Shown here: piece by piece, positions 18,282-42,465 of the stretch | Position numbering within the stretch: the first letter of the stretch is position 1 | Layout of the letters: each line of letters begins with the position of its first letter | Virus record (IMG/VR): IMGVR_UViG_3300048576_000591 | Location: 1 to 46,131 of that record | Length of the DNA: 46,131 nt | Source of the DNA: a virus | Taxonomy: Duplodnaviria; Caudoviricetes | Strand: one strand, 5' to 3' | The notes under the pieces: generated by a model | The model's input: the letters and a program-made list of their open reading frames with translations, nothing else | Told to the model about the DNA's origin: nothing | The model's database searches: none | Program-made: the position numbers and the translations under genes

Positions 18282-19022
18282 TTAGGCGGGGTTGATGTCG
18301 ACTTTGACGATGTCGCCATTCCCGCCGGTGGTGGCGAATTGCGCACCCGGAATCCGGATGTGCGTCGCGGTCGACGTGTAGCGGCCCGTCGCCGGGTTCC
18401 AATACACATCGCCGCCATCCACGACGTTGGCACCCGCCATGACGTACATCGGCCCCTTCTTCATGAAGCCGCCGGTGAAGTACTGCGGGTACTTGTCGGG
18501 GTTGGTGGCGTCTGGCGGAACGGCCGGAGAGAGAACGGCCAGGCCAACGAAGCCCACATTCGCCGTATAGGTCACGTCGATGTAGAACATGTCGCCAGCG
18601 GTCGGGGTGCCGGCGCCGGTCACAGTGGCGGTGATGCCGTCGACCGTGAACGCGGTGCCGACGGCGCCGTGCCCAACGATGACGCCTTTCGGGTCATGGA
18701 TGACCAGGGCACCGGTCGCCGCGGTATTCAGTTGCGTCACGACGTAACGGCCCTGCTTCGCACCGGCTGCAACGGCTGGTGCCGCCGTGATGGTGGAGGT
18801 GCCGGTGTTTCCGGCAGCGGCCGAACCGGCTCCGGTCGCCGCAAACGCAGCACCGGCGATCACGCCGTTGTCGCCATTGCCGCGGAATGCGGGCTGACCG
18901 AACGCGATGCCAGCGGCAGATTCCACGGTTCGGCTCACGACCTCAGCGTGCTCGGTGCTGGCGATTTGACCGGGAAGGCCAATCGGCGCCTTCTCGGCGT
19001 AAGTGGTCTGATAAGTGGACAT
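18282..19022 (-). CDS. Capsid decoration/cement protein with an inserted Ala/Thr-rich domain
   Basis: IGLPG, IAFG and G.MYV motifs; between scaffold and capsid genes. Confidence 0.75.
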   Translation of the reverse strand: MSTYQTTYAEKAPIGLPGQIASTEHAEVVSRTVESAAGIAFGQPAFRGNGDNGVIAGAAFAATGAGSAAAGNTGTSTITAAPAVAAGAKQGRYVVTQLNTAATGALVIHDPKGVIVGHGAVGTAFTVDGITATVTGAGTPTAGDMFYIDVTYTANVGFVGLAVLSPAVPPDATNPDKYPQYFTGGFMKKGPMYVMAGANVVDGGDVYWNPATGRYTSTATHIRIPGAQFATTGGNGDIVKVDINPA

Positions 19023-19064
19023 GAATTCTATCCCTTCTTGTCCGGGGTTGTTCCGATTGGCTGG

Positions 19065-20240
19065 TTAGGCCGACTTCGGCAGGTAGGCGGACTGCATGTC
19101 CTTGATCATCTGATCGCGGGCATCGGTCACCTGCTTGTCGGCGTCCGGATTAGGCTGCTGGGTGCGGATCGCATCGCGCAGCGGGTCGGAACCGGCGGCC
19201 GTGGCATCCTTGGTGAGAGCCATGAACATGCCGGTGATGGTCGCGTCGCTCGCGTCCTTCACAGCGGCGTCGCCCATGACCTTCGTGACCACTGCCTTAC
19301 GGATGTCGGAATCCGAAATGCCATCGGTCTTGACGTCCTTGTCGAGAGCCTTCGCAGCCGTGATGACAGCCACGCGGCCCGCTACGAGCGCGTCGAGCTG
19401 AGCCGGCGTCGGGATTTTGTCCTCAGCCGTCTTCAGTTGACCTTTCAGCCTGCCAATTTCCGTGTCCTTCGTCGCGATCGCGGTGGTGTGAATCGCAGCG
19501 GCGTCAGTCGTGGCCTTCAGCGCATCGGTCAACTGCTTCTGCAGCCGATCGATCGCCTGGGCGCCCTGGTCAGTGGTGGAGATCGAGAAACCGTCAACCA
19601 CGACGGTCTTCAGATTGGCGTCGAGCGCCATGGTCGTGTCCCTTTCATTGAGAGGAAGCGCGAGTTGCCCGCGATCATCGGCTGCGCGCTGATCACCGAT
19701 GCGTGTGCTGCCGGCACGCGGGTTGTTGTCCGGCAGATAGGCGACATGGTTGAAGCGGATCGGTCCAACCTGTTTGAACTGGTAGTGAGTGCCGTCAGGC
19801 GCCACGCCATCGGCGGCGACGACGTTTGCCGTGTATCCGGCTGACAGCGAACGAGCTCCGCCAAGAACCTCCTGAACGGCGGCCGCATCCATAATCGCTG
19901 CCTGCGCGACGACGAATTCGCCATCCCTTCGAATGACGCCACCCATCTGCCCACGGGAAAGGGCCTTCCAGTTGTCGGCCTTGATGCCGTTGAGTGGGTG
20001 GTTGCGCGAAATGGGACGTCCTGCCAGCGAAAGCATGGACGCGCTGTCGAAAACGGCATCGGGATCGCGATAGACGCCGAACGGCTTGTTGGCATCATCA
20101 CCGGTGAGCCCGAGTTCGTAGCCGTAGTACTGCTGGACGTTCCCGCCCCGGGCCACCTTGGCGTCGCCGACAAGGTAGCCGTCGTTCGTGAGGCTGAGCC
20201 CCGACGCATCGAACGTCAGAGCGTCGAAGATTTCGACCAT
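19065..20240 (-). CDS. Prohead protease/scaffold (DUF2213)
   Basis: DGYL, HP, LSAGY, NHVA and RAG motifs; coiled-coil C-terminus; AGGAG RBS. Confidence 0.9.
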   Translation of the reverse strand: MVEIFDALTFDASGLSLTNDGYLVGDAKVARGGNVQQYYGYELGLTGDDANKPFGVYRDPDAVFDSASMLSLAGRPISRNHPLNGIKADNWKALSRGQMGGVIRRDGEFVVAQAAIMDAAAVQEVLGGARSLSAGYTANVVAADGVAPDGTHYQFKQVGPIRFNHVAYLPDNNPRAGSTRIGDQRAADDRGQLALPLNERDTTMALDANLKTVVVDGFSISTTDQGAQAIDRLQKQLTDALKATTDAAAIHTTAIATKDTEIGRLKGQLKTAEDKIPTPAQLDALVAGRVAVITAAKALDKDVKTDGISDSDIRKAVVTKVMGDAAVKDASDATITGMFMALTKDATAAGSDPLRDAIRTQQPNPDADKQVTDARDQMIKDMQSAYLPKSA

Positions 20241-20384
20241 AGTGATCTCCTGAAGGATTGCGGGGCTTCCCGACCTTTGGCGCAAATGATCGGGTGGATA
20301 CGACCCGGGCGAGGCACGCCAGCGATACGATCAGGTTCTGGGCATTGCAGCGGCGCCCGCCGACCGCTGGGGAGTTCGCCTCGC

Positions 20385-21224
20385 CTATTCTTCTTCGATG
20401 TCGACCACGGCCTGAGCCGTGCATCCGCAAAACGGCTTCATCTTCGGCTTGTCGTTGCGGATGGCTGGATCATCCCAGCGGTACCGCTTGCCATTCCGCG
20501 CCTTGTGCACAGGCCGGTAATGCAGCTTTCCCGAATGCCGCCACTGGAAAGTGTCGATTCCGGCTTGCTGCTGGCGCAGCTCATCAAGCGCGCCTGACAG
20601 CTTGTTGGTTTGGTCGACAGCGATCCGGCGGGCCCGTGCGCGCTGCCCTTCGATGACGGCGTTGATATGCTTCGCGATCTCGTTGCGCGGCGTCCGTGCC
20701 GCAATCCCTTGCCAAACGGCCTGACCGATCTGCTGGCGCATCACGTCCGAGACGTTGCGGATCAGGTCCGTGTTGCGCTGTACCGCCAGCGCTAGTTCCT
20801 CAGCGGCGTCCTGGCTCAGGATGACACCTTGCACTTTGATACCCGTTGCGCTCGCCACAGCCTGTTCGAAGCGGCCACGGTGCCAATTCTCGACACGTAC
20901 CGCCCAATGCCTTAAGGCGATCAACTTCGCGGCTACAACGCTGCCGGCGTGCGCATCTGATTGCGCCAGCGCAGCGCCGATCTGGTCCGCCTCTTCGTCA
21001 CGCGTAAGGCGATTGAGAGCGGCGGCATACGTCGGCAGGATCAAGGTCGCCGATTGATCACGCCAGGCGCGCACCACCGGTGCGTACTCGAGGTAAAGGG
21101 CATTTACCAAGGCGGGGGTCGGATCGATCGGGCGAAGAAGAACGTTCCTTTTCAAGCCCGTAGCGCGCGCCATGGTCGCCAAATTGTAGCGAAGATTTCC
21201 TCGGCTGGTGATCTCGATCGCCAT
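20385..21224 (-). CDS. Head morphogenesis protein (SPP1 gp7/Mu F)
   Basis: RARRIAVDQT, W.HS, R..H..RNG and CGC motifs. Confidence 0.9.
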   Translation of the reverse strand: MAIEITSRGNLRYNLATMARATGLKRNVLLRPIDPTPALVNALYLEYAPVVRAWRDQSATLILPTYAAALNRLTRDEEADQIGAALAQSDAHAGSVVAAKLIALRHWAVRVENWHRGRFEQAVASATGIKVQGVILSQDAAEELALAVQRNTDLIRNVSDVMRQQIGQAVWQGIAARTPRNEIAKHINAVIEGQRARARRIAVDQTNKLSGALDELRQQQAGIDTFQWRHSGKLHYRPVHKARNGKRYRWDDPAIRNDKPKMKPFCGCTAQAVVDIEEE

Positions 21225-21403
21225 GGGCTACCTTTCAGCCATGCCAGAAGACTGGACACCCGGCGAGCAGTTGCGGATCTGGGCGGCCGAAGCTCAGGCC
21301 AGGGCCTCGGCCATCGAGGACGGCATGTCTAAGCAGCACGCTGAGATGATCGGAAATACGGCCGCCGCAGTAATGAAGGCGGCGATCATAACCGACCGTG
21401 CGC

Positions 21404-23269
21404 TCACGCCTCCTCGATCGACGTCTCCCAATCGTTCTTGACCTCTTCGAAGATCTCCGGTCCGAAAACGATCTCCCCCGAGTAGGGTTTGACCTTCGCG
21501 AGATCCATATCTCTAGCGTCGTAGCTGATCGTGATGTGAGGCTGATACTCGGGCCAGTCCCACGACGCGCCAGCGTTGCGCTTGATGTCCTCGTGGCGCC
21601 ATGACAGCTCCGACGAGCTGAACAGCAGCACGACGGCTTTCCCATCAGCACCGAGACGCTCGATTAGGCGAGCTCCACCGGGTTTTATGGTCAGTTGGCC
21701 CTTGTCGTTCTCCGCCCAGGCGCTGCCGGCCTTCATCCAATCAACGGGCTGGCGCGAGAACGCGATCGTGACGTGCATGTCTCCGGCCGGGATGGTCTTG
21801 GTAAAGCCCTGCGCCTTCGCCCACGCGACTATATCGGCGGCGTTCAACACCTTGCGGCTGACGTAGAGCGTGCGAGGCTCGGCGTCCTTGGTTGGGCGCG
21901 GTTCGCCCCCTGCAGCACTCTGAACGGGCGCCGGCGGTGCGTTTGGATCGGGCTCGGCGGGCTCTTCCTCGATCGGCGCAATTTCGCCCGCCTTTTCGGC
22001 CTCGGCCATTGCCTCCTCGAGACCGGGATAGTCGCCGCTTTCGATTAGCTGGTTCTGGGTGGATTTGGCCAATGCCGATTCCGGGATCAATTGGCTGTTG
22101 ACGTAGATCTGCGTCGTCTGTGCCCGCTTGTACGAGATGTCGGCCCTATCCTTCTCGCTGAGCGGCCGGAGTTCGGGAAGCTCGTACCATAGATCCGGCG
22201 GATAGGCACCAAGTGCCGATCGAGCGATCACCTGGTCGGCCTTGTCGAGGGCCGGGCAAAGCTTCTCTTCCTGCTCGGACGAAACCTTGCTCTGGTAGTT
22301 GTCCATGTCGCCGTCGCCGGTCGAGTTGAGGCCACCAGGGCTCTGGCTGAGGAACCGCGTCACCGGGATGTCGCGCGCCGCCGATGCGATCGTCAGATAC
22401 TTCTGCAGGATCTCCGGCAACTGCGAGAAGTTGACCTGACGCTGCTCCCACTTTTCGTTGGCGTCCATGATCAGAGCGTTATGGACGGACTTCCCAACCG
22501 CGGCCACGGTAAGGCGACGAGAGAGGCGATCCTCGTATTCCTTCGTCCCGATCCGATCCATCAGTTCGGGAATCTGAATGATATCGATCTTGGCTTCGCG
22601 GATCAGCGCCGCGATTTCGGTTTGAGCCATCGCCGCGTTGAGAACAGCGTCATAGACAGACTGAAGGACGGGATCACCCCAACCGAGATTGGCAGTTTCG
22701 CTATCGGGGTCCGGCAACTCATTGCCCAGGAACCGCACGACGCGCGACGGATGGATGCGGACTGCACCGTTCACACCGGCCAAAGAGTACATCTTCGGCT
22801 CCATGAAGAACGGCGATTCCGGATCGCGATCGATGTCCTCGACGGTCAGCTGGTGACGGTTCACCACATGAATGTAGCGAAGCGAACCTTTACCGAGGTG
22901 TTTGAGGTCGAGTTCGTCTTGCGAGCTGCCTTGAGCGACGCCCATGATCATCGCCGCGCCGCCGTAGAGGTCGGCCAGACGCAACGCGCGACGGACACGC
23001 GCCTTCAGCTTTAGCGTTCGCTCGGTCTCCTCGAGCGCCTTGATGGCGGCTTTGTCCGTCTTCCACTCGCGCCATTCGCGCGTCATGTCGCCGGGGATGA
23101 TGTCGACCGATTTGCGCGCCACCCAATCGCACCGGTATGCGGCCTCGAGCTCAAGCTTCTGCAGGGGGCGAAGAACGAACCTGTCGGTAACGCCTTTATC
23201 CCTGCCGGGCACTCCCATCCCGGTGAGCACGTTGGCGAGGCCGTCCGCGAATTTGGACAGGAGCTTCAT
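21404..23269 (-). CDS. Portal protein (DUF1073) fused to a C-terminal Acb1-like 2H phosphoesterase
   Basis: DMTREW, YGGA, IHPSR, IPVTR..SPGGLNSTG portal motifs; acidic/Pro linker; C-terminal HVT...HIT domain. Confidence 0.9.
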   Translation of the reverse strand: MKLLSKFADGLANVLTGMGVPGRDKGVTDRFVLRPLQKLELEAAYRCDWVARKSVDIIPGDMTREWREWKTDKAAIKALEETERTLKLKARVRRALRLADLYGGAAMIMGVAQGSSQDELDLKHLGKGSLRYIHVVNRHQLTVEDIDRDPESPFFMEPKMYSLAGVNGAVRIHPSRVVRFLGNELPDPDSETANLGWGDPVLQSVYDAVLNAAMAQTEIAALIREAKIDIIQIPELMDRIGTKEYEDRLSRRLTVAAVGKSVHNALIMDANEKWEQRQVNFSQLPEILQKYLTIASAARDIPVTRFLSQSPGGLNSTGDGDMDNYQSKVSSEQEEKLCPALDKADQVIARSALGAYPPDLWYELPELRPLSEKDRADISYKRAQTTQIYVNSQLIPESALAKSTQNQLIESGDYPGLEEAMAEAEKAGEIAPIEEEPAEPDPNAPPAPVQSAAGGEPRPTKDAEPRTLYVSRKVLNAADIVAWAKAQGFTKTIPAGDMHVTIAFSRQPVDWMKAGSAWAENDKGQLTIKPGGARLIERLGADGKAVVLLFSSSELSWRHEDIKRNAGASWDWPEYQPHITISYDARDMDLAKVKPYSGEIVFGPEIFEEVKNDWETSIEEA

Positions 23270-23275
23270 GGTGCC

Positions 23276-24646
23276 TCACAGGTTGTCGAGGGTGTAGTTC
23301 GGGGCAGTGAGGAGCGCGTTGAACGCGCGGCTCGTGCTGTCGGCATCGTCGTCGTGGTCAGCCTCGGGGAAACCCTCGAGCTCGGTGAACCAGCGTTCGT
23401 TCCAAGAGCCTCGGAGCACGAGGACGTTTCCTGCTTCGGCCTGGGCGGAGAAGCCGCCGAAACGGGTGATCTTGTCGCCGCTCTCGGGCGTGGCCCGTAC
23501 GCGGTAGCCGGAAAGCAGTTTGATAAAGCCACCGACCTGATACTTTCCCGCCTGCCCCGGATCTTGCGGCAACGAGATCTCGACGCTGTGCCCGTCGGCC
23601 GACGCCGTGTTCTTGATCATCGTCTCAACGCCGGCGGGCGACTTTCGATCGAATGCGTGGTCGGCGACGATGTATCGACCGTCTGGAAGCTTTCCGACCT
23701 TGGTTCCGCACGTCCAGTCGGGGTCGTTGGATTCCGTCTTCGGCGTTCCGCCGAGGTCCCATCCACGAACCCAACGAACACCGGCCGGAACGGCATCAAC
23801 GACCGTGCACCAGGCGCGTTGGAAGTAGAGGCCGGCGGCGGGGCGGATCTTCCAGTTTCCACCGAGGAGGCGCTCGCGTTCGACCGTCGGCAGCGCCATG
23901 AGGTTGGCGCGATAGCCCGGATCTGCCGCCATCAAGGCGAGATTGTCGGTCAGCTTGGCCGGAATGAAGGTGACGGACTTCGGCGGCAGCGGAAGACCTG
24001 TCGTCGGATCGGTGTACTCGGCGAGATCCTGGGGGTGATCTGCCCATTTCAGTGTATCGCCGATGCGCACAAACCAGCGAAGAACGCCCGATCGTTCGGG
24101 GATGGGATATCCCGTCTCCTGGTTGATCCACCACGAAATGAATTCGGCAACCCAGCTGTCGGCGTCGGGATTGCATGTCGCCCGAATGTAAGGCCGGACG
24201 CCGCACATCGATCGGTTGCGGCTGACCATGTACCAGAACTGCTTCGCGCTGAAGTGGGTCAGCTCATCGAAGCATTCAAGCGGGATCTGGGCGCCCTGGT
24301 AGCCGAGCACGGTCTTGTCGTGCTCGAGGTGGGCCATTGTGACGGACGCGCCGCTTGGAAAGTCCCAGGTGAGGATGTGCTCCTTCGGACCGGCCGAAAG
24401 CAGCGGGTAGAGGTTGTTGCTCTCGTCCCATAGACCGCCCTCGTTTCGGATCTGCACCGTGGTGCGCCGAAAGAAGACAGCGCCGAACCCAGGATTCGAG
24501 ACGTGGCGCAGGGGCTCCATCAGGAGCGCCCAGGTTTTCCCTCCGCCGGCGGCGCCGCCGTAGATCGCAATGTCGGCCGGGCTGGACAGGAACGTCGTCT
24601 GCGGCCCCGGCTGAGGGCGTATGACCCTCTGATCAGCCCCGCCCAT
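23276..24646 (-). CDS. Terminase large subunit
   Basis: GGAAGGGKT Walker A; FDELTHF; TCNP; WDL and HDDDADS nuclease motifs. Confidence 0.95.
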   Translation of the reverse strand: MGGADQRVIRPQPGPQTTFLSSPADIAIYGGAAGGGKTWALLMEPLRHVSNPGFGAVFFRRTTVQIRNEGGLWDESNNLYPLLSAGPKEHILTWDFPSGASVTMAHLEHDKTVLGYQGAQIPLECFDELTHFSAKQFWYMVSRNRSMCGVRPYIRATCNPDADSWVAEFISWWINQETGYPIPERSGVLRWFVRIGDTLKWADHPQDLAEYTDPTTGLPLPPKSVTFIPAKLTDNLALMAADPGYRANLMALPTVERERLLGGNWKIRPAAGLYFQRAWCTVVDAVPAGVRWVRGWDLGGTPKTESNDPDWTCGTKVGKLPDGRYIVADHAFDRKSPAGVETMIKNTASADGHSVEISLPQDPGQAGKYQVGGFIKLLSGYRVRATPESGDKITRFGGFSAQAEAGNVLVLRGSWNERWFTELEGFPEADHDDDADSTSRAFNALLTAPNYTLDNL

Positions 24647-25115
24647 TATCCGGGAGCTGGAAAATCGTCACCGCGCTCGGAGGCGGCAAGTCCTTTCCAT
24701 CCTTTCCGGTCAGCTCGCGCTTGTTCGTGAACGCGTTGCCCATTTCCTTCGCCGCCTGTTCGAGGAGTTGAGCGGCAAGGCCGATGTTTCCCGACGATTC
24801 CGCCTTCTCGGCCATGCGCTGCAGGGCGCGAAGCCGGTACACCTGATGGCTGACGCCGATCGCCGCGGAATCCTCAAGGAAGGTCTTCCGGGTTTCGTTG
24901 AATAGGGCCCGCCACTTGTCCGCAATCTTGGCTCCGGCCCGCTTGTTCGGGTCGTAGACCTCCATCGCCTGGGGCGTGACGGTGATGCCGAATTCTTTCT
25001 TGACCGCGGCGGCCACGACGGACGGCGGGTCGAACATAGCCAAGCTTTGCACCACAAAGGTTTGAGCCTCCGGTGTCAGCTTTGGTCTGCCCCTGCCCCC
25101 TTGTTTCGGCATCAA
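24633..25115 (-). CDS. Terminase small subunit (DUF2280)
   Basis: FVVQSLA.FD.PS, LLEQAAKE.G and ELTGKDG motifs; upstream of TerL. Confidence 0.85.
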   Translation of the reverse strand: MMPKQGGRGRPKLTPEAQTFVVQSLAMFDPPSVVAAAVKKEFGITVTPQAMEVYDPNKRAGAKIADKWRALFNETRKTFLEDSAAIGVSHQVYRLRALQRMAEKAESSGNIGLAAQLLEQAAKEMGNAFTNKRELTGKDGKDLPPPSAVTIFQLPDNGRG

Positions 25116-25131
25116 TCCAACCTCAAGCTAA

Positions 25132-25767
25132 TTACGCAACTTTGTTGCATGTCCCGCAGGCACCAACGATCTGGGCCTCGGTGATCGTCGGGCGCTTCTT
25201 GGAGGCTTCGACCAGATCGAAAGTTCGACCGGCACTACGCCCTGCCCCGTACCTCTCAACAATGCCGACGAACTCTTCGACGTCATGCGATCGCATCGCG
25301 AATACCGGTCGACCGTCTTTCGTAAACCGGGGCTGGCCGAACTTGTTGAGCGCCTGGCCGCAGTGGAGGAGCTCATGCTCTACCGTCGCGCAGAACGTCC
25401 CGTCATCGCAGATTGCGGCATAGCCGGCATCGATGGAGATGATGAAGTCCGGCAGATCGCCGAACCATTCCCGAAGCTGCTGTTCTTGGCGGGCCCGGCG
25501 CCACTTGCCGCCCTGGAACATCGGTTGTTCAGCTTGACCGACGATGGCCACCATGCCCCGGCTGTTCGGCTCATAGGCCCAGAGCATGCCGATGCGCGCC
25601 GCCTTCAGGTGACGATGATCTGGGTTCTCGAGCGGAGCACCGTCGGCAATGAACGTTGATACCGCCCACTCGGCTAGGTCGATCGCCGGAATGAAGCTCG
25701 GTGGAACTTCGCCGTCCTCGAATTTACGCGGATGCGGGCGCAGCCGCAGGGTTGCGGCATTGGTCAT
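25132..25767 (-). CDS. Phage putative metallopeptidase
   Basis: HELLH (HExxH) and HDVEEF.GIV.RYG motifs. Confidence 0.85.
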   Translation of the reverse strand: MTNAATLRLRPHPRKFEDGEVPPSFIPAIDLAEWAVSTFIADGAPLENPDHRHLKAARIGMLWAYEPNSRGMVAIVGQAEQPMFQGGKWRRARQEQQLREWFGDLPDFIISIDAGYAAICDDGTFCATVEHELLHCGQALNKFGQPRFTKDGRPVFAMRSHDVEEFVGIVERYGAGRSAGRTFDLVEASKKRPTITEAQIVGACGTCNKVA

Positions 25768-25811
25768 CTGTTAACCCCCGCGACCTACAAAACGATGGAA
25801 GGAGATTCGTT

Positions 25812-25994
25812 ATGGACGAAAAACAGCACGAGACAATCGTTGCTGCCATCTTGACAGTGGCAAGCGCCCAGTCGGGGAGCATGACCCCGGCGAGCACCGT
25901 TAAGCGCTATCGCGACATTCTGACGGAGATCCGCCGGAACAGCGATGGCGTTCATTCTGACAGCACACAGGTCGCGAAGCCGAGCGTGCTCTAG
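25812..25994 (+). CDS. Small hypothetical protein in antisense orientation
   Basis: AAGGAGA RBS before ATG 25812; fills the gap between metallopeptidase and dam. Confidence 0.55.
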   Translation: MDEKQHETIVAAILTVASAQSGSMTPASTVKRYRDILTEIRRNSDGVHSDSTQVAKPSVL

Positions 25995-26793
25995 TTGTTC
26001 TGAACGATCAGCTCCTGCACCTTCTTGCTCCGCCCTCGGCCTGCCAAGCTGTAGTCGAGCGATTTCGTCCTGACTTTGAACCGGCCGAACACTTTTCGCG
26101 CCAGAGGGCAATCGTTCACGGTCAGGATGAACCGGCCGGCGATCGTCGCGAGTAGATCGGCGAGCCGCTGGAAATCAGCCTGCCCAAACATTCCGGCGCC
26201 GTAATAGTCCTCACTGCCGATGTAGGGCGGATCGATGAAGAACACCGTGCCGGCGCGGTCGTAGCGCTTGATCATGTCAGCGTAGGGAAGGCGCTCGCTC
26301 ACAACGCCGGCGAGCCTCTCGTGGTAGGCCTCAAGCTCGGGGACGATCCGTGGATATCGAACGTCCCGCGCTCGCCCGGCGACACACCGAAATTCCGTCC
26401 GTTGACCTTTCCGCCGAACGCCGTCTTTTGGAGATAGAAGAACCGGGCGGCCCGCTGAAGGTCCGTCAACATCGACGGATCGGTATTGACCAGGCGCTCA
26501 AACTCGGTACGCGTCGTGATCTGCCAGCGCAGCATCTCGACAAATGCGGCGTAGTGAACCTGCAGGACGCGAAATAGGGTCGAAACGTCCTGCGACCAGT
26601 CGTTGATGACCTCCGACCTAGGACGCGATTTCCGACGGAAGAACACCCCTCCCATACCAACGAAAGGTTCGGCGTAGGTGGTGTGCGGCACTTTGTCGAT
26701 TAGGTCGATCAACGTCGACGCCAGAAGCCTTTTACCTCCCACGTAGGGTGCCAGACCCTTAAGCGGGACAATCTGCTCATACTCCTCAGACAC
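25991..26793 (-). pseudogene. dam: DNA adenine methylase (D12/Dam class) split by a frameshift near 26352
   Basis: N-part has PYVGGK and EPFVGMGGV; C-part has DPPY; the -1 frame reads RIVPELEAYHERLAGVV straight into the second ORF. Confidence 0.8.
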
Positions 26794-26809
26794 GACTCAC
26801 ATTCCTTTG

Positions 26810-26913
26810 CCCGTCGCCGGTGCACCCGGTGGCGGGATGATCGCAAGGCGATCGATTGCGGTTATGCGAGTGCAAGCTCGCAGCTCAGAGCGTTGCCGCG
26901 CTCTGGGCCCCGC
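26810..26913 (+). ncRNA. Candidate structured RNA upstream of and antisense to dam (C4/CI-like architecture)
   Basis: Hairpins 26810-26836, 26839-26853, 26865-26882 and 26883-26908; closing GCGG/CCGC; G-U pairs favour the + strand. Confidence 0.5.
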
Positions 26914-27108
26914 CTATTCTCGGCGAGGAATAGACTGCTGAAATTCTGCGCCGCCGCCCGCGCACCCAATGGGCGGATCTATCGGCGGCGCAAGGCGCTT
27001 AGGAGAAGGCGGAGCCGTTTTGCCCGATCCATCGGGCGCGGGAGAGGCGCTTGGCAATCCCGCTATCGGTACGACCCTTCTGTCACTGCGCCGAAAACTA
27101 TGCAGATC

Positions 27109-27441
27109 CTATGTAGGCGGCTGGAAGCGCAGGACCCCGCGCGCGAATAGCTGGTCAACCGGTGGATAGCCGAGCGCCTTTTCGAATGCCGTGCCATCAC
27201 CACCTACCGTCGCCATGACGCGGTCGACAAGCTTTCGATCGTCATGGCGGACCTTCGCCTCATCCACGCGGAGCCATTTCGATACGGTCGCGAGCCAGCG
27301 AAGGTGAAGCACTCTCGCCTCAGCGATTTCGGCCGGGGTGTGATGGCCGTCGACGCGAACCGCTGGCGTAATAACTCGAGCTTCTGTTTCGAAACGGGGC
27401 GCGGCTGCGCGCTTTCGCACCGCTGCTGAGGCTCTCGCCAT
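27109..27441 (-). CDS. Hypothetical protein
   Basis: ATG directly follows the GIY-YIG stop codon. Confidence 0.55.
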   Translation of the reverse strand: MARASAAVRKRAAAPRFETEARVITPAVRVDGHHTPAEIAEARVLHLRWLATVSKWLRVDEAKVRHDDRKLVDRVMATVGGDGTAFEKALGYPPVDQLFARGVLRFQPPT

Positions 27442-28005
27442 CTACCCAACCTTGGTGATGGAATTGGATTTCATCCACTCATCGATGAGGGCGCGTTCCT
27501 GCAGATCCTTTGCCCGGTCTCTCCGCCTTCGCCACGGCTTGGTTATCGCGATGCCAATCTTCTTCGCCTGAATATCTTCGCGCGCCCGCGCGGTGTATTC
27601 GCCGTCACCGGTGTGCAGATTTACGAGCTGATCACCCCTCGCCTCGATCCATTCTCGTTCCGCTCTGCCCAGGTCAGCAGGGTTGTGCTCCAAAATCACA
27701 ACGCGGAGATCGTCACCAGCCCTAGCCAGCCGCTTTTGCAGATTTAGCTGGACCTTCGCGGGGTTGGCATAACTTGAGAACCGCGACTTAGCGTTCGTCG
27801 TTTTGCCTATATAGAACACACCGTCGCCATCTCGCAGGCCGTAGATCAAGCTACCCGGAATCTTCTTGGCTTCGGAAAGCGTGTATTCCCGATCGAGGTC
27901 GGGAGGCGCAATGGTTGCCTTCTTCGGCGGTGAGAAGTCCAAGCGACGCCGCGATTTGTTGTTGCGACGTATCCGAACTTCCAATCTGTTCACTGGTTTA
28001 CGCAT
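27442..28005 (-). CDS. GIY-YIG family endonuclease
   Basis: IYGL...FYIGKT....R, later AEREWI and LVN. Confidence 0.8.
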   Translation of the reverse strand: MRKPVNRLEVRIRRNNKSRRRLDFSPPKKATIAPPDLDREYTLSEAKKIPGSLIYGLRDGDGVFYIGKTTNAKSRFSSYANPAKVQLNLQKRLARAGDDLRVVILEHNPADLGRAEREWIEARGDQLVNLHTGDGEYTARAREDIQAKKIGIAITKPWRRRRDRAKDLQERALIDEWMKSNSITKVG

Positions 28006-31010: not shown

Positions 31011-31253
31011 TCAGCGCATTCCAATCTTGGTCAGGTAGAGGTCGAGCATCGCGTCGGCTTCTTGGAAGTCGGCTTTATCCATTTTACGGAGCCGCACGAC
31101 CTGGCGCATTATCTTGACGTCAAAGCCTTCGCCTTTGGCCTCGGCGTAGACCTCCTTGATGTCGTCAGCGAGAGCCTTCTTCTCCTCTTCCAGACGTTCC
31201 ACGCGTTCTATGAACGAACGCAGGCGATCCTCTGAGAATGTGGTTTTTGCCAT
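31011..31253 (-). CDS. gapR: DUF2312 / GapR-like nucleoid-associated protein
   Basis: [31 protein letters not shown]. Confidence 0.92.
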
Positions 31254-31263
31254 TTCTCTCCCC

Positions 31264-31470
31264 CTAATCGTTGTTGTATGCGTGCCAAGGCTGCTTGGCC
31301 GGTTCGCCGACCTCGACGCCCTTCTCGTTCGCGAATCGCGCCGGCGGCGTGTAGGGCTCGAGCCGGAGGTCCTTGCGCAGGCACTCGTTGGTTTCGCGAC
31401 GGATCGCGTCACGCACGCGCAAATCGCAGCGCTTGGCTTCCGGCGGTATCGGACGAAGATGCAGCATCAC
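31264..31470 (-). CDS. Hypothetical protein
   Basis: Overlap coupling to the upstream gene. Confidence 0.5.
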
Positions 31471-36110: not shown

Positions 36111-36404
36111 ATGAACACCGAAAAGCCTTTGACTTTCGCCGACAAAGTCGCCGCCTCCTCACAGGTGCGCCACGTCAGCTATGACGCCGAACAGCGCCAG
36201 CTTCACGTCGTCTTCCGGCGCACGCCCGCGCTCTACGTCTACAGCGACTTTCCGGCTGAGAAGTGGGACGAGCTGCAGGCATCCGACAGCATCGGCTCGT
36301 ACCTCTACAAGCGCGTCACGCGGCCGATCGACGGCGAACTGCCCTACCTGTTCGAAAAGCGCGAGTTGCCGGAAGACCTCAAAGAGGAAGCGGCGGCACA
36401 ATGA
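36111..36404 (+). CDS. KTSC domain protein
   Basis: SSQVRHVSYD....L.V.F....Y.Y...P........S.SIGSY. Confidence 0.85.
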   Translation: MNTEKPLTFADKVAASSQVRHVSYDAEQRQLHVVFRRTPALYVYSDFPAEKWDELQASDSIGSYLYKRVTRPIDGELPYLFEKRELPEDLKEEAAAQ

Positions 36405-41820: not shown

Positions 41821-42465
41821 ATGACGCAAGCCTACCCCCTTCAATGGCCTGAAGGCTGGCCGCGAACCAAGTCCCGCCGCCACGCAAAATTCGGCAAGAA
41901 CGAAACCCAACGCTCGAGCTCCTCGGATATCTCCTGGACCTCGAAAAAGGAGCTGTCGATCGCGGACGGCACCAAGCGCGTGATCGCAGAGCTTCGCGCA
42001 CTCGGCGTCGAGGCCGGCCATTTCATTATCAGCAGCGACCTGGAGCTACGGAATGACGGGCTTCCTCGGTCGGGGCAGCGCGCGCCGTCCGACCCTGGTG
42101 TTGCCGTCTACTGGTCCCGGTGGCGCGACGGGCGCCGCGAGCCTCAGAAGGTGATGGCGATCGACCTCTACGACCGGGTGGCGGATAACCTCGCCGCCAT
42201 TGCGGCCACGCTAAGCGCCATGCGGGCGATCGAACGCCACGGCGGCGCGCAGATCCTGGAGCGCGCGTTCACGGGCTTCGATGCTCTGCCACCGCCGAAA
42301 ACGTGTTGGGAAATTCTCGGCCTCCAGCCGGGCGCCAGTGCCGCGATGATTGCGACTGCGTTTCGCCGCTTGGCGATGGACAACCATCCCGATCACGGCG
42401 GCTCAACGGAGCGCATGGCAGAAATTTCGGCGGCGCGTGACGCGGCGCTGAAGGAGGCGGCATGA
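41821..42465 (+). CDS. Phage J-domain (DnaJ-like) protein
   Basis: AYPLQWP.GWPRT N-domain; C-terminal WEILG...HPDHGGS. Confidence 0.88.
   Translation: MTQAYPLQWPEGWPRTKSRRHAKFGKNETQRSSSSDISWTSKKELSIADGTKRVIAELRALGVEAGHFIISSDLELRNDGLPRSGQRAPSDPGVAVYWSRWRDGRREPQKVMAIDLYDRVADNLAAIAATLSAMRAIERHGGAQILERAFTGFDALPPPKTCWEILGLQPGASAAMIATAFRRLAMDNHPDHGGSTERMAEISAARDAALKEAA

What the first reader, a model, noticed from the sequence alone, without database searches (positions are those of the whole stretch)
21404..21890. Portal protein carries an Acb1-like 2H phosphoesterase: candidate virion-delivered anti-CBASS enzyme
Seen: after the DUF1073 portal body and an acidic/Pro linker (EEEPAEPDPNAPPAP), about 155 in-frame residues contain two HxT motifs (DMHVTIAFS and QPHITISY). 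Established: paired HxT/S motifs define 2H phosphoesterases, and T4 Acb1 of this fold hydrolyses CBASS cyclic nucleotides. Portal-Acb1-like fusions do appear in family annotations, but I know of no mechanistic study. Inference: a dodecameric portal would put about 12 enzyme copies in each virion, or would supply the enzyme when head proteins, which trigger some CBASS systems, are made.
Basis: partly seen in the sequence, partly recalled or inferred. Interest (0 to 1): 0.82.

Follow-up and report, generated by a model that had tools for sequence, protein, structure and literature searches.

The report
Cleavable Acb1 cargo on phage portal
This phage's head-portal protein ends in an intact enzyme domain of the Acb1 family, predicted to destroy bacterial alarm nucleotides; the fusion is common and already proposed in print, and a conserved Asp-Ala site at the junction suggests the phage's own head protease likely cuts the enzyme loose inside the new virus head.

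Summary
Observation confirmed. The minus-strand ORF 23269-21404 (621 aa) is a PF06381 portal, an acidic/Pro linker and an Acb1-family 2H domain (Pfam E 2e-47; best structural match FBB1 Acb1, Z 16.5, LigT 10.8). Both HxT motifs and the lid Trp are intact. The fusion is common (1,795 clusters; cyanophage Pam3 portal is a full-length orthologue). Iyer et al. 2017/2022 already proposed head packaging against nucleotide signalling, and this scan found it at least six times on other DNA, twice with a cleavage idea. Tested here: the junction Asp462-Ala463 behaves like a maturation-protease site. Asp is there in 109 of 110 loci with a DUF2213 protease, 0 of 7 with other proteases. Asp-Ala is enriched in the scaffold and conserved near the capsid, portal and protease N-termini. 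DUF2213 folds like T4 gp21. In phage TLS (same head module) the published mature capsid N-terminus follows an Asp in register with this phage's. So the enzyme is likely freed in the prohead, not left on the portal. Activity, cleavage, packaging and ejection are untested. New member of a known kind; interest 0.42.

The parts
21404..23269 (-). Portal-Acb1 fusion gene, 621 aa (P0001)
   Evidence: full-length match to Pam3 portal PDB 8HDS, E 7.5e-134
22010..23269 (-). Portal body, residues 1-420 (PF06381 40-387; TIGR01555; PHROG 146)
23243..23245 (-). Portal Asp9, conserved N-terminal Asp; predicted maturation site
   Evidence: Asp in 68 of 69 portals
21887..22009 (-). Acidic, Ala/Pro-rich, poorly conserved linker, residues 421-461
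   Evidence: mean identity 0.18-0.21; 22-99 aa, median 34, in relatives; Asp-Ala under-represented in it, 21 vs 37+-5
21881..21886 (-). Asp462-Ala463 junction; predicted cleavage site of the DUF2213 head protease
   Evidence: Asp 120 of 120, Ala 119 of 120; tracks protease type; TLS anchor
21407..21880 (-). Acb1-family 2H phosphodiesterase domain, residues 464-621
   Evidence: PF23474 E 1.9e-47; AF2 pLDDT 94; Foldseek and VIA top hits 7T26/7T27
21767..21775 (-). First catalytic motif H499-V-T501 (T4 Acb1 H44/T46)
21530..21538 (-). Second catalytic motif H578-I-T580 (T4 Acb1 H113/T115)
21413..21436 (-). C-terminal lid segment with Trp614 (T4 Acb1 W147, lid 145-152)
   Evidence: lid defined in PMC9117128
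20385..21224 (-). MuF/SPP1 gp7-like minor head protein with a conserved Asp76
   Evidence: PF04233; Asp in 14 of 14
19065..20240 (-). DUF2213 prohead protease-scaffold fusion; invariant His81, Ser133, His165; scaffold rich in Asp-Ala
   Evidence: PF09979; PHROG 530 head maturation protease; fold match to T4 gp21 5JBL, E 5e-4
18282..19022 (-). Capsid cement protein
   Evidence: PF22758
17274..18242 (-). Major capsid protein; Asp11-Ala12 predicted propeptide cut
   Evidence: PF09950; Asp in 45 of 55; in register with TLS Asp27 by ungapped extension
23276..24646 (-). Terminase large subunit, 6 bases upstream of the portal start
   Evidence: PF03237, PF17289
24633..25115 (-). DUF2280 protein in the terminase small-subunit position
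   Evidence: PF10045; role inferred from position

Best explanation
The portal gene ends in an intact Acb1-family 2H domain that likely hydrolyses adenine-containing CBASS alarm nucleotides, and the phage's DUF2213 head protease is predicted to cut it off at Asp462-Ala463 during prohead maturation, so that up to 12 free copies would stay in the head and likely be ejected with the DNA into the next cell. The portal serves as a loading handle. Its C-terminal end faces the capsid interior, the linker keeps the enzyme clear of the DNA channel, and the cut both clears the portal and frees the cargo, as for T4 internal proteins and Alt. Surplus portal made with the late genes would also put the enzyme in the producing cell when the head protease appears, which is a known CBASS trigger. 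Shown here: the fusion, the intact catalytic motifs and lid, the fold, the conservation of the Asp-Ala site and its covariation with protease type. Inferred: substrate (about 0.75), cleavage at this site (about 0.85), retention and ejection (about 0.5).
For: Enzyme identity: PF23474 E 1.9e-47; phmmer to FBB1 Acb1 E 2e-12; AF2 model matches 7T26 at E 2.5e-8; VIA Z 16.5, rmsd 2.0 over 136 residues for 7T27, 13.8 for PDE-9, 10.8 for LigT 5LDM. T4 Y12, H44, T46, F107, H113, T115, E141, W147 map to Y469, H499, T501, W572, H578, T580, E608 (or E609), W614. Purifying selection against the 93%-identical relative L147: 12 amino-acid vs 34 silent differences in 160 codons. Optional cargo slot: among the 120 closest portals 53 carry Acb1, 47 have a short tail, 20 a longer tail, including PBECR3, ADP-ribosyltransferase and topoisomerase IB. 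Cleavage site: Asp seven residues before Tyr469 in 109 of 109 loci where BLAST found DUF2213 (110th, L115, found by Pfam only, has Asn-Ala), 0 of 7 with Peptidase_S78 or XkdF proteases, all 7 of which have Lys there or 1-2 residues before. Standalone relatives T4 gp57B, L003 and P0220 lack the Asp at that place. Asp-Ala in 48 scaffolds 398 vs 228+-13 in shuffles, Ala-Asp not enriched, capsid body depleted 29 vs 47+-7. DUF2213 model matches T4 gp21, with invariant His81/Ser133. TLS has the same three Pfam families; its Edman-read mature capsid start ASDMGIW (PMC11447400) follows Asp27, in register with this capsid's Asp11. Pam3 portal is ordered barrel, crown, wing, stem, clip from inside out; the related Pa193 portal has a C-terminal barrel and no density for 529-765.
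Against: No activity, cleavage, virion proteomics or ejection data exist for this protein. T4 Trp74 aligns with Leu539 (Leu in 100, Phe in 20 of 120), and the domain has insertions relative to Acb1, so specificity may differ; Doherty et al. report that 2H clades differ widely in substrate and some cut none of 18. 49 of 118 portal-fused relatives lack the lid Trp yet keep both HxT motifs, which suggests the family may not depend on the Acb1 lid mechanism. The five S78 loci form one clade in a quick tree, so the Lys cases are about 3-4 events, not 7; Lys enrichment in two HK97-type delta domains was not significant (6 vs 5.1), the L080 scaffold was borderline (p 0.04) and the L115 Asn motif was not significant (p 0.10). 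D462 lay inside the search region, a small selection bias (the portal-only search gave Asp-Ala in 45 of 53, Asp at that place in 49 of 53). The TLS authors themselves inferred a different cut (45 residues removed), although their Edman read starts at residue 28. A folded 18-kDa domain must pass a channel as narrow as 24 A in Pam3. CBASS fires late, so 12 copies delivered at entry are few: about 0.7 uM substrate per minute at saturation, a rough figure from T4 Acb1 rates.
Confidence: 0.45

Rival explanations
1. Late counter-defence in the producing cell only: surplus portal-Acb1, or the fragment cut from it, destroys CBASS signal during head assembly; the cut mainly clears the portal for DNA packaging, and any fragment left in the head is not delivered.
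For: Prohead proteases activate CD-NTases late in infection (bioRxiv 2026.03.04.709575); the protease-scaffold of Drexlerviridae phage Bas13 determines Type I CBASS sensitivity, and the Drexlerviridae phage TLS uses DUF2213. The gene lies between terminase and protease. A temperate phage (integrase, CI/Cro-like genes) induced from a prophage has no injected copy.
Against: Late expression needs no fusion; the domain is repeatedly joined to head proteins (HK97-, Mu- and PF06381-type portals, DUF2213 and XkdF proteases, ChaB) and swaps with ADP-ribosyltransferase and PBECR nuclease, the pattern of packaged effectors.
Confidence: 0.3
2. The domain is an active 2H enzyme for another substrate (other cyclic or 2'-5' oligonucleotides, RNA 2',3'-cyclic ends, cyclic ADP-ribose phosphate), and CBASS is not its target.
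For: Trp74 equivalent is Leu; 49 of 118 relatives lack the lid; the domain is fused with NUDIX domains in P0007; Iyer 2017 also offered an RNase role; SMODS-family genes were over the cut-off in only 6 of 26 genomes carrying a relative, against 2 of 14 controls.
Against: Acb1 and PDE-9, both broad CBASS-signal hydrolases, are the top structural matches, well above LigT, Usb1 and CNPase; no RNA ligase, polynucleotide kinase or tRNA was found in the window (76 ORFs scanned).
Confidence: 0.15
3. The enzyme stays tethered: the mature virion holds 12 copies on the portal crown and Asp-Ala is part of the domain's fold.
For: The Pam3 portal entry lists the full 621-residue sequence; the AF2 model gives residues 1-10 of the fragment pLDDT 84 and the structural alignment to PDE-9 starts at model residue 3.
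Against: The alignment to FBB1 Acb1 starts at model residue 7 (R466), after the Asp-Ala; standalone relatives lack it; the residue changes with protease type; a tethered enzyme could not reach the host cytoplasm because portals stay in the capsid (established knowledge).
Confidence: 0.07
4. The domain is a decayed or purely structural passenger.
For: 47 of the 120 closest portals lack any cargo, so it is dispensable for assembly.
Against: All four catalytic residues are conserved in 120 of 120; the domain is better conserved than the portal body in that set; silent changes outnumber replacements about 3 to 1.
Confidence: 0.03

Closest known systems
Acb1 of phages T4 (gp57B) and FBB1 (PDB 7T26/7T27; PF23474; Hobbs et al. 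2022, PMC9117128)
   Same: 2H fold, HxT/HxT tetrad, Y12/F107/E141/W147 equivalents, C-terminal lid; 29% identity to T4 over 126 residues
   Different: Fused behind a portal instead of standalone; Leu in place of W74; short insertions; activity untested
2H phosphoesterases fused to portal or MuF (Iyer et al. 2017 PMC5512222; 2022 PMC9503650)
   Same: Same architecture and the same proposal: packaged in the head and injected to counter nucleotide signalling
   Different: Those are predictions; the passages I read name no cleavage site or protease
Cyanophage Pam3 portal gp3 (PDB 8HDS; PMC9942802)
   Same: 621 aa, aligned over 7-618, with linker, VTDA junction and the 2H domain (second motif HxS); same head gene order
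   Different: Pam3 is a myophage, this one has a siphophage-type tail; the passages and supplement I read describe only the five usual portal parts and no enzyme domain; I did not see the modelled residue range
T4 prohead protease gp21 with head-packaged, cleaved proteins (IPI, Alt)
   Same: Protease fold; cut after an acidic residue (I/L-x-E for gp21); packaged effector delivered with DNA (Alt; cleavage of IPs and Alt is recalled)
   Different: Predicted Asp rather than Glu specificity; cargo loaded through fusion to the portal rather than by a targeting peptide
2H PDE-9 of Burkholderia phage BCSR5 (PDB 9Q2Y/9Q2G; bioRxiv 2025.08.21.671373)
   Same: Second-best fold match (Z 13.8); hydrolyses 3'3'-cGAMP
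   Different: Uses an N-terminal lid, 16-18% identity
LigT / ThpR RNA 2',3'-cyclic phosphodiesterases
   Same: 2H fold, two HxT/S motifs
   Different: Lower fold score (Z 10.2-10.9, rmsd 3.4-3.6), partial Pfam match only, no RNA-repair genes found nearby

Membership tests
Acb1 (PF23474) | Profile match above the curated cut-off over the whole domain | tested here: met
   161 bits vs 27; profile 1-143 of 144
Acb1 (PF23474) | HxT/HxT catalytic tetrad | tested here: met
   H499/T501, H578/T580
Acb1 (PF23474) | Compact 2H fold closest to 7T26/7T27 | tested here: met
Acb1 (PF23474) | Base-stacking aromatics Y12, F107, W147 and adenine-reading E141 | tested here: met
   Y469, W572, W614, E608 or E609 by sequence alignment
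Acb1 (PF23474) | Aromatic residue at T4 W74 | tested here: inconclusive
   Aligns with L539 next to a gap; Phe in 20 of 120 relatives; no residue-level structural alignment was available
Acb1 (PF23474) | C-terminal lid (T4 145-152) | tested here: met
   NDWETSIE 612-619 aligns with LDW147
Acb1 (PF23474) | Metal-independent hydrolysis of 3'3'-cGAMP, cUA, cA3 and rescue from CBASS | not testable with these tools
   needs biochemistry and plating
LigT / RNA-repair 2H enzymes | Best structural and profile match is LigT-like | tested here: not met
   Z 10.8 vs 16.5; PF02834 matches 27 residues only
LigT / RNA-repair 2H enzymes | Linked to RNA ligase, kinase or tRNA genes | tested here: not met
   none among 76 ORFs scanned; 0 tRNAs; small unscanned ORFs remain
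PF06381 / TIGR01555 phage portal | Profile match and place between terminase and head genes | tested here: met
Prohead maturation protease (T4 gp21/HK97/assemblin fold) for DUF2213 | Fold and invariant His/Ser | tested here: met
   5JBL top hit, E 5e-4, TM 0.49-0.56; H81, S133, H165 invariant in 47 of 47
Prohead maturation protease (T4 gp21/HK97/assemblin fold) for DUF2213 | Cleaves head proteins after Asp | not testable with these tools
   indirect only: TLS Edman read follows Asp27; motif statistics
Head-packaged, ejected phage effectors (MuF/portal cargo, T4 Alt type) | Optional, swappable enzyme on a head protein | tested here: met
Head-packaged, ejected phage effectors (MuF/portal cargo, T4 Alt type) | Present in the mature virion and transferred to the host cell | not testable with these tools
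   no proteomics or infection data

The most novel reading that the evidence does not exclude
A self-timed antidote: the head protease whose activity trips CBASS is the same enzyme that frees the signal-destroying Acb1 from the portal precursor, and the freed copies are also carried in the head to pre-arm the next infection. The release site is re-tuned (Asp, Lys or Asn) to whichever protease family the phage uses, and DUF2213 is an Asp-specific member of the T4 gp21 family.
Probability: 0.25. Interest if true: 0.75.

Novelty: new member of a known kind. Interest (0 to 1): 0.42.

Why it matters
If the mechanism holds, small temperate phages with no room for anti-defence islands would use the portal as a loading handle for a catalytic anti-CBASS enzyme, and release would be tied to the head protease, a known CBASS trigger. 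That would be a first virion-borne anti-CBASS enzyme among the papers I could search, and it would assign a specificity to the widespread DUF2213 protease. It can be tested in cultured phages that carry the same fusion (Pam3, Rhizobium RHEph04-06, Synechococcus Yong-M2-251). The fusion itself is common and already predicted, so this copy adds little alone.

Tried and rejected
LigT/RNA-repair identity: rejected on fold rank and context. Frameshift or split gene: rejected, one open frame and 1,795 clusters of fused length. Asp-Ala as part of the fold: disfavoured. Sequencing runs for 19000-25000: none was listed; no evidence either way. Promoter/terminator scan of 19000-27500: nothing above shuffles. 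Host CBASS: the record is a 46-kb virus record with no host DNA; the SMODS survey of 26 of the 29 genome loci (6 over the cut-off; controls 2 of 14) does not separate the hypotheses. phmmer of DUF2213 against PDB sequences found nothing meaningful; only the fold search did. The careful tree did not finish; the quick tree has 4 starred branches of 55 and cannot fix the number of motif switches. Lys and Asn motif enrichment tests were weak or negative. The wide VIA search was not obtained. Literature: 10 searches found no experimental study of a portal-fused 2H domain and no statement of DUF2213 specificity; most subscription papers are outside this library.
Full report
Observation. The finding is the 3' end of a minus-strand ORF, 23269..21404, of 621 residues. 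It lies in the head module of a temperate, siphophage-type phage: DUF2280, terminase, portal, MuF, DUF2213, cement, PF09950 capsid, then tail genes and lysozyme, with CI/Cro-like genes and an integrase elsewhere. The record is a single 46,131-base virus record; the nearest relative of the domain (93%) is in a contig titled Alphaproteobacteria bacterium (L147). Pfam gives PF06381 at 40-387 and PF23474 Acb1 at 466-616, E 1.9e-47.

What the domain is. phmmer against PDB sequences finds the Pam3 portal (E 4.6e-35) and FBB1 Acb1 (E 2.1e-12), and nothing else below E 0.7. An AlphaFold2 model from a 67-sequence alignment (pLDDT 94) matches 7T26/7T27 first by Foldseek and by VIA-align: Z 16.5, rmsd 2.0 over 136 residues, then PDE-9 at 13.8 and LigT-type chains at 10.2-10.9. 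Against T4 gp57B (fetched), the residues named by Hobbs et al. (PMC9117128, passages) map as Y12-Y469, H44/T46-H499/T501, F107-W572, H113/T115-H578/T580, E141-E608 or E609, W147-W614; W74 falls on L539 beside a gap. In the query plus its 119 best fused homologues all four catalytic residues are kept in 120 of 120. Against L147 the domain has 12 replacement and 34 silent differences in 160 codons. So it is an intact, selected Acb1-family enzyme. Its substrate is inferred, not shown.

How common, and whether known. The domain occurs in 1,795 clusters of 341-1,087 residues among 2,112 candidates, and on the portals of cultured phages such as Pam3, phiPSA1, RHEph04-06 and HMSP1. Among the 120 closest portals, 53 carry Acb1, 47 end soon after the body and 20 have longer tails; of nine long-tailed ones scanned, two had PBECR3, one an ADP-ribosyltransferase, one topoisomerase IB and five no further Pfam match. 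Acb1 is also found on HK97- and Mu-type portals, on DUF2213 and XkdF proteases and on ChaB. Iyer et al. 2017 (PMC5512222, passages) report 2H domains fused to MuF or portal and suggest RNase or nucleotide-signal-degrading roles; Iyer et al. 2022 (PMC9503650, passages) say such fusions are likely packaged and injected to counter SMODS, cyclic-mononucleotide and CRISPR signalling. This scan noted the fusion in at least six other genomes. The architecture and the delivery idea are therefore not new.

The junction. Earlier scan notes suggested a protease site; I tested it. The linker is variable (0.18-0.21 identity), yet Asp462 is present in 120 of 120 and Ala463 in 119 of 120. Because Asp462 lay inside that search region, I recounted in the portal-only search: Asp at that place in 49 of 53, with two shifted by one residue and two not anchored. 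In loci L001-L146 plus the window (147 sources; T4 gave no row, 2 could not be anchored, 14 duplicates dropped, 130 counted), Asp stands seven residues before Tyr469 in 109 of 109 loci with a BLAST-detected DUF2213 and in 0 of 7 with Peptidase_S78 or XkdF, which have Lys at or just before that place; 14 loci showed no protease (10 Asp-Ala, 2 Asn-Ala, 2 other). One Asn-Ala locus, L115, has a divergent DUF2213 seen by Pfam only, so the fair count is 109 of 110. In the HK97-type loci the same Lys-Ala/Ser recurs at the portal N-terminus and at the end of the capsid delta domain in three of four printed, as in HK97, whose cut after Lys103 I recall. The five S78 loci are one clade, and count-based tests of the Lys and Asn motifs were weak, so the covariation rests on few independent events.

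The same Asp marks other head proteins: portal Asp9 (68 of 69), capsid Asp11 (45 of 55, followed by Ala in 42), both ends of the DUF2213 domain (62 of 63 each) and MuF Asp76 (14 of 14). Asp-Ala occurs 398 times in 48 non-redundant scaffold regions against 228+-13 in shuffles; the reversed pair is not enriched; the capsid body (29 vs 47+-7) and the rest of the linker (21 vs 37+-5) are depleted; the portal body is neutral; this phage's own scaffold has 11 vs 4.9+-1.9. That is the pattern expected when a scaffold is to be chopped up and mature shell protein spared. DUF2213 has invariant His81, Ser133 and His165, PHROG calls it a head maturation protease, and its model (pLDDT 88) has T4 gp21 as top fold match, with herpesvirus proteases below. 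An experimental anchor exists: phage TLS has the same portal, protease and capsid families, and Edman sequencing of its mature capsid gave ASDMGIW (PMC11447400, passages). In the TLS sequence this follows Asp27, which is in register with Asp11 here when the BLAST alignment (24 to 40, 20% identity) is extended without gaps. The authors inferred a different cut further on; their own read fits Asp27-Ala28.

Mechanism. Portal C-termini face the capsid interior: Pam3 is described as barrel, crown, wing, stem, clip from inside out (PMC9942802, passages and one supplement searched), and Pa193 has a C-terminal barrel followed by 237 unresolved residues (PMC11456595, passages). The enzyme would therefore enter the prohead with the portal, 12 per head, beside the protease. 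A cut at Asp462 would release a 159-residue folded protein that begins three residues before the part that aligns with FBB1 Acb1. I think it most likely stays in the head and is ejected, because fusion is not needed for late expression and the slot swaps among typical packaged effectors. Against this: the channel is as narrow as 24 A in Pam3, and 12 copies give only about 0.7 uM per minute at saturation, from T4 Acb1 rates in bioRxiv 2025.08.21.671373 (passages). The main rival is action in the producing cell. Hobbs and Kranzusch (bioRxiv 2026.03.04.709575, abstract and passages) show that prohead proteases activate CD-NTases by cleavage, late in infection, and the Bas13 protease-scaffold sets Type I CBASS sensitivity (bioRxiv 2023.05.21.541620, passages). 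The two roles are not exclusive.

Limits. Nothing here shows activity, cleavage, packaging or ejection. 49 of 118 portal-fused relatives lack the lid Trp, most ending 3-7 residues after GPExF, yet all 49 keep both HxT motifs; T4 Acb1 without its lid did not trigger Panoptes, so that half of the family is unexplained. I could not see which nine homologues Hobbs 2022 tested (no 'portal' in the text or in 9 supplement files), nor Doherty's supplementary table. I recall, unverified, that one database Acb1 entry from a Bacillus phage is a long portal-like protein; if it was among those tested, activity of such a fusion is already known. Other papers seen as passages only, with nothing on the fusion: PMC13728456, PMC13480210, PMC7824862, PMC9382816, PMC13577500, bioRxiv 2025.06.06.658234.

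Verdict. Real, correctly identified, common and predicted before: a new member of a known kind. The useful addition is the supported prediction of an Asp-Ala release site cut by the DUF2213 protease, which turns the tethered-enzyme picture into a released-cargo one and ties the enzyme to a known CBASS trigger. Interest 0.42; novel case 0.25 likely, 0.75 if true.

Noticed in passing
loci L001, L004, L029, L057 and others: 49 of 118 portal-fused Acb1 domains lack the lid Trp, most ending 3-7 residues after GPExF, yet all keep both HxT motifs: a lid-less subfamily with unknown activity.
   Followed up: partly
L115:1713-10254, L079:2116-3972: A divergent head module with an Asn-Ala junction; L115 has a distant DUF2213 and a scaffold with several Asn-Ala/Glu/Ser sites (not significant, p 0.10), possibly an Asn-specific protease.
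   Followed up: partly
L176:7088-8062 (phage TLS capsid): The published Edman read starts at residue 28, after Asp27, not at the 45-residue cut the paper surmises.
   Followed up: yes
P0262: A portal with a PBECR3 tail and no Acb1 domain is named 'anti-CBASS protein Acb1 family protein' in UniRef: the name spills over to PF06381 portals, so database counts of Acb1 may be inflated.
   Followed up: partly
P0250, P0254, P0233, P0007, P0167, P0200: Other cargo or carriers: portal with ADP-ribosyltransferase, topoisomerase IB or PBECR3; Acb1 with NUDIX and DUF2213 in one 1,018-aa protein; Acb1 with ChaB; Acb1 with XkdF protease. Several long tails start with a recurring F-D/E-x-x-x-H/Q-P-R-x-x-x-G-x-W/F motif.
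   Followed up: partly
window 21241-21441 (+): A 66-codon ORF on the opposite strand between portal and MuF, 95% identical over 55 residues in L147 and absent from the other loci; no Pfam match.
   Followed up: partly
window 25991-26793 (-): A D12-class adenine methyltransferase (PF02086) is split over two adjacent frames, profile 1-121 and 165-246: a frameshift or a sequencing error.
   Followed up: no
window 25132-25767 (-): A putative phage metallopeptidase (PF18894) directly upstream of the terminase genes; role unexplained.
   Followed up: no
window 31011-31412 (-), 41821-42465 (+), 36111-36404 (+): GapR-like DNA-binding protein, DnaJ-domain protein and KTSC-domain protein in the early region.
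   Followed up: no
L081:5343-13538: An Acb1 domain inside a 2,732-aa protein with no other Pfam match, in a context that looks like ejected internal virion proteins.
   Followed up: no
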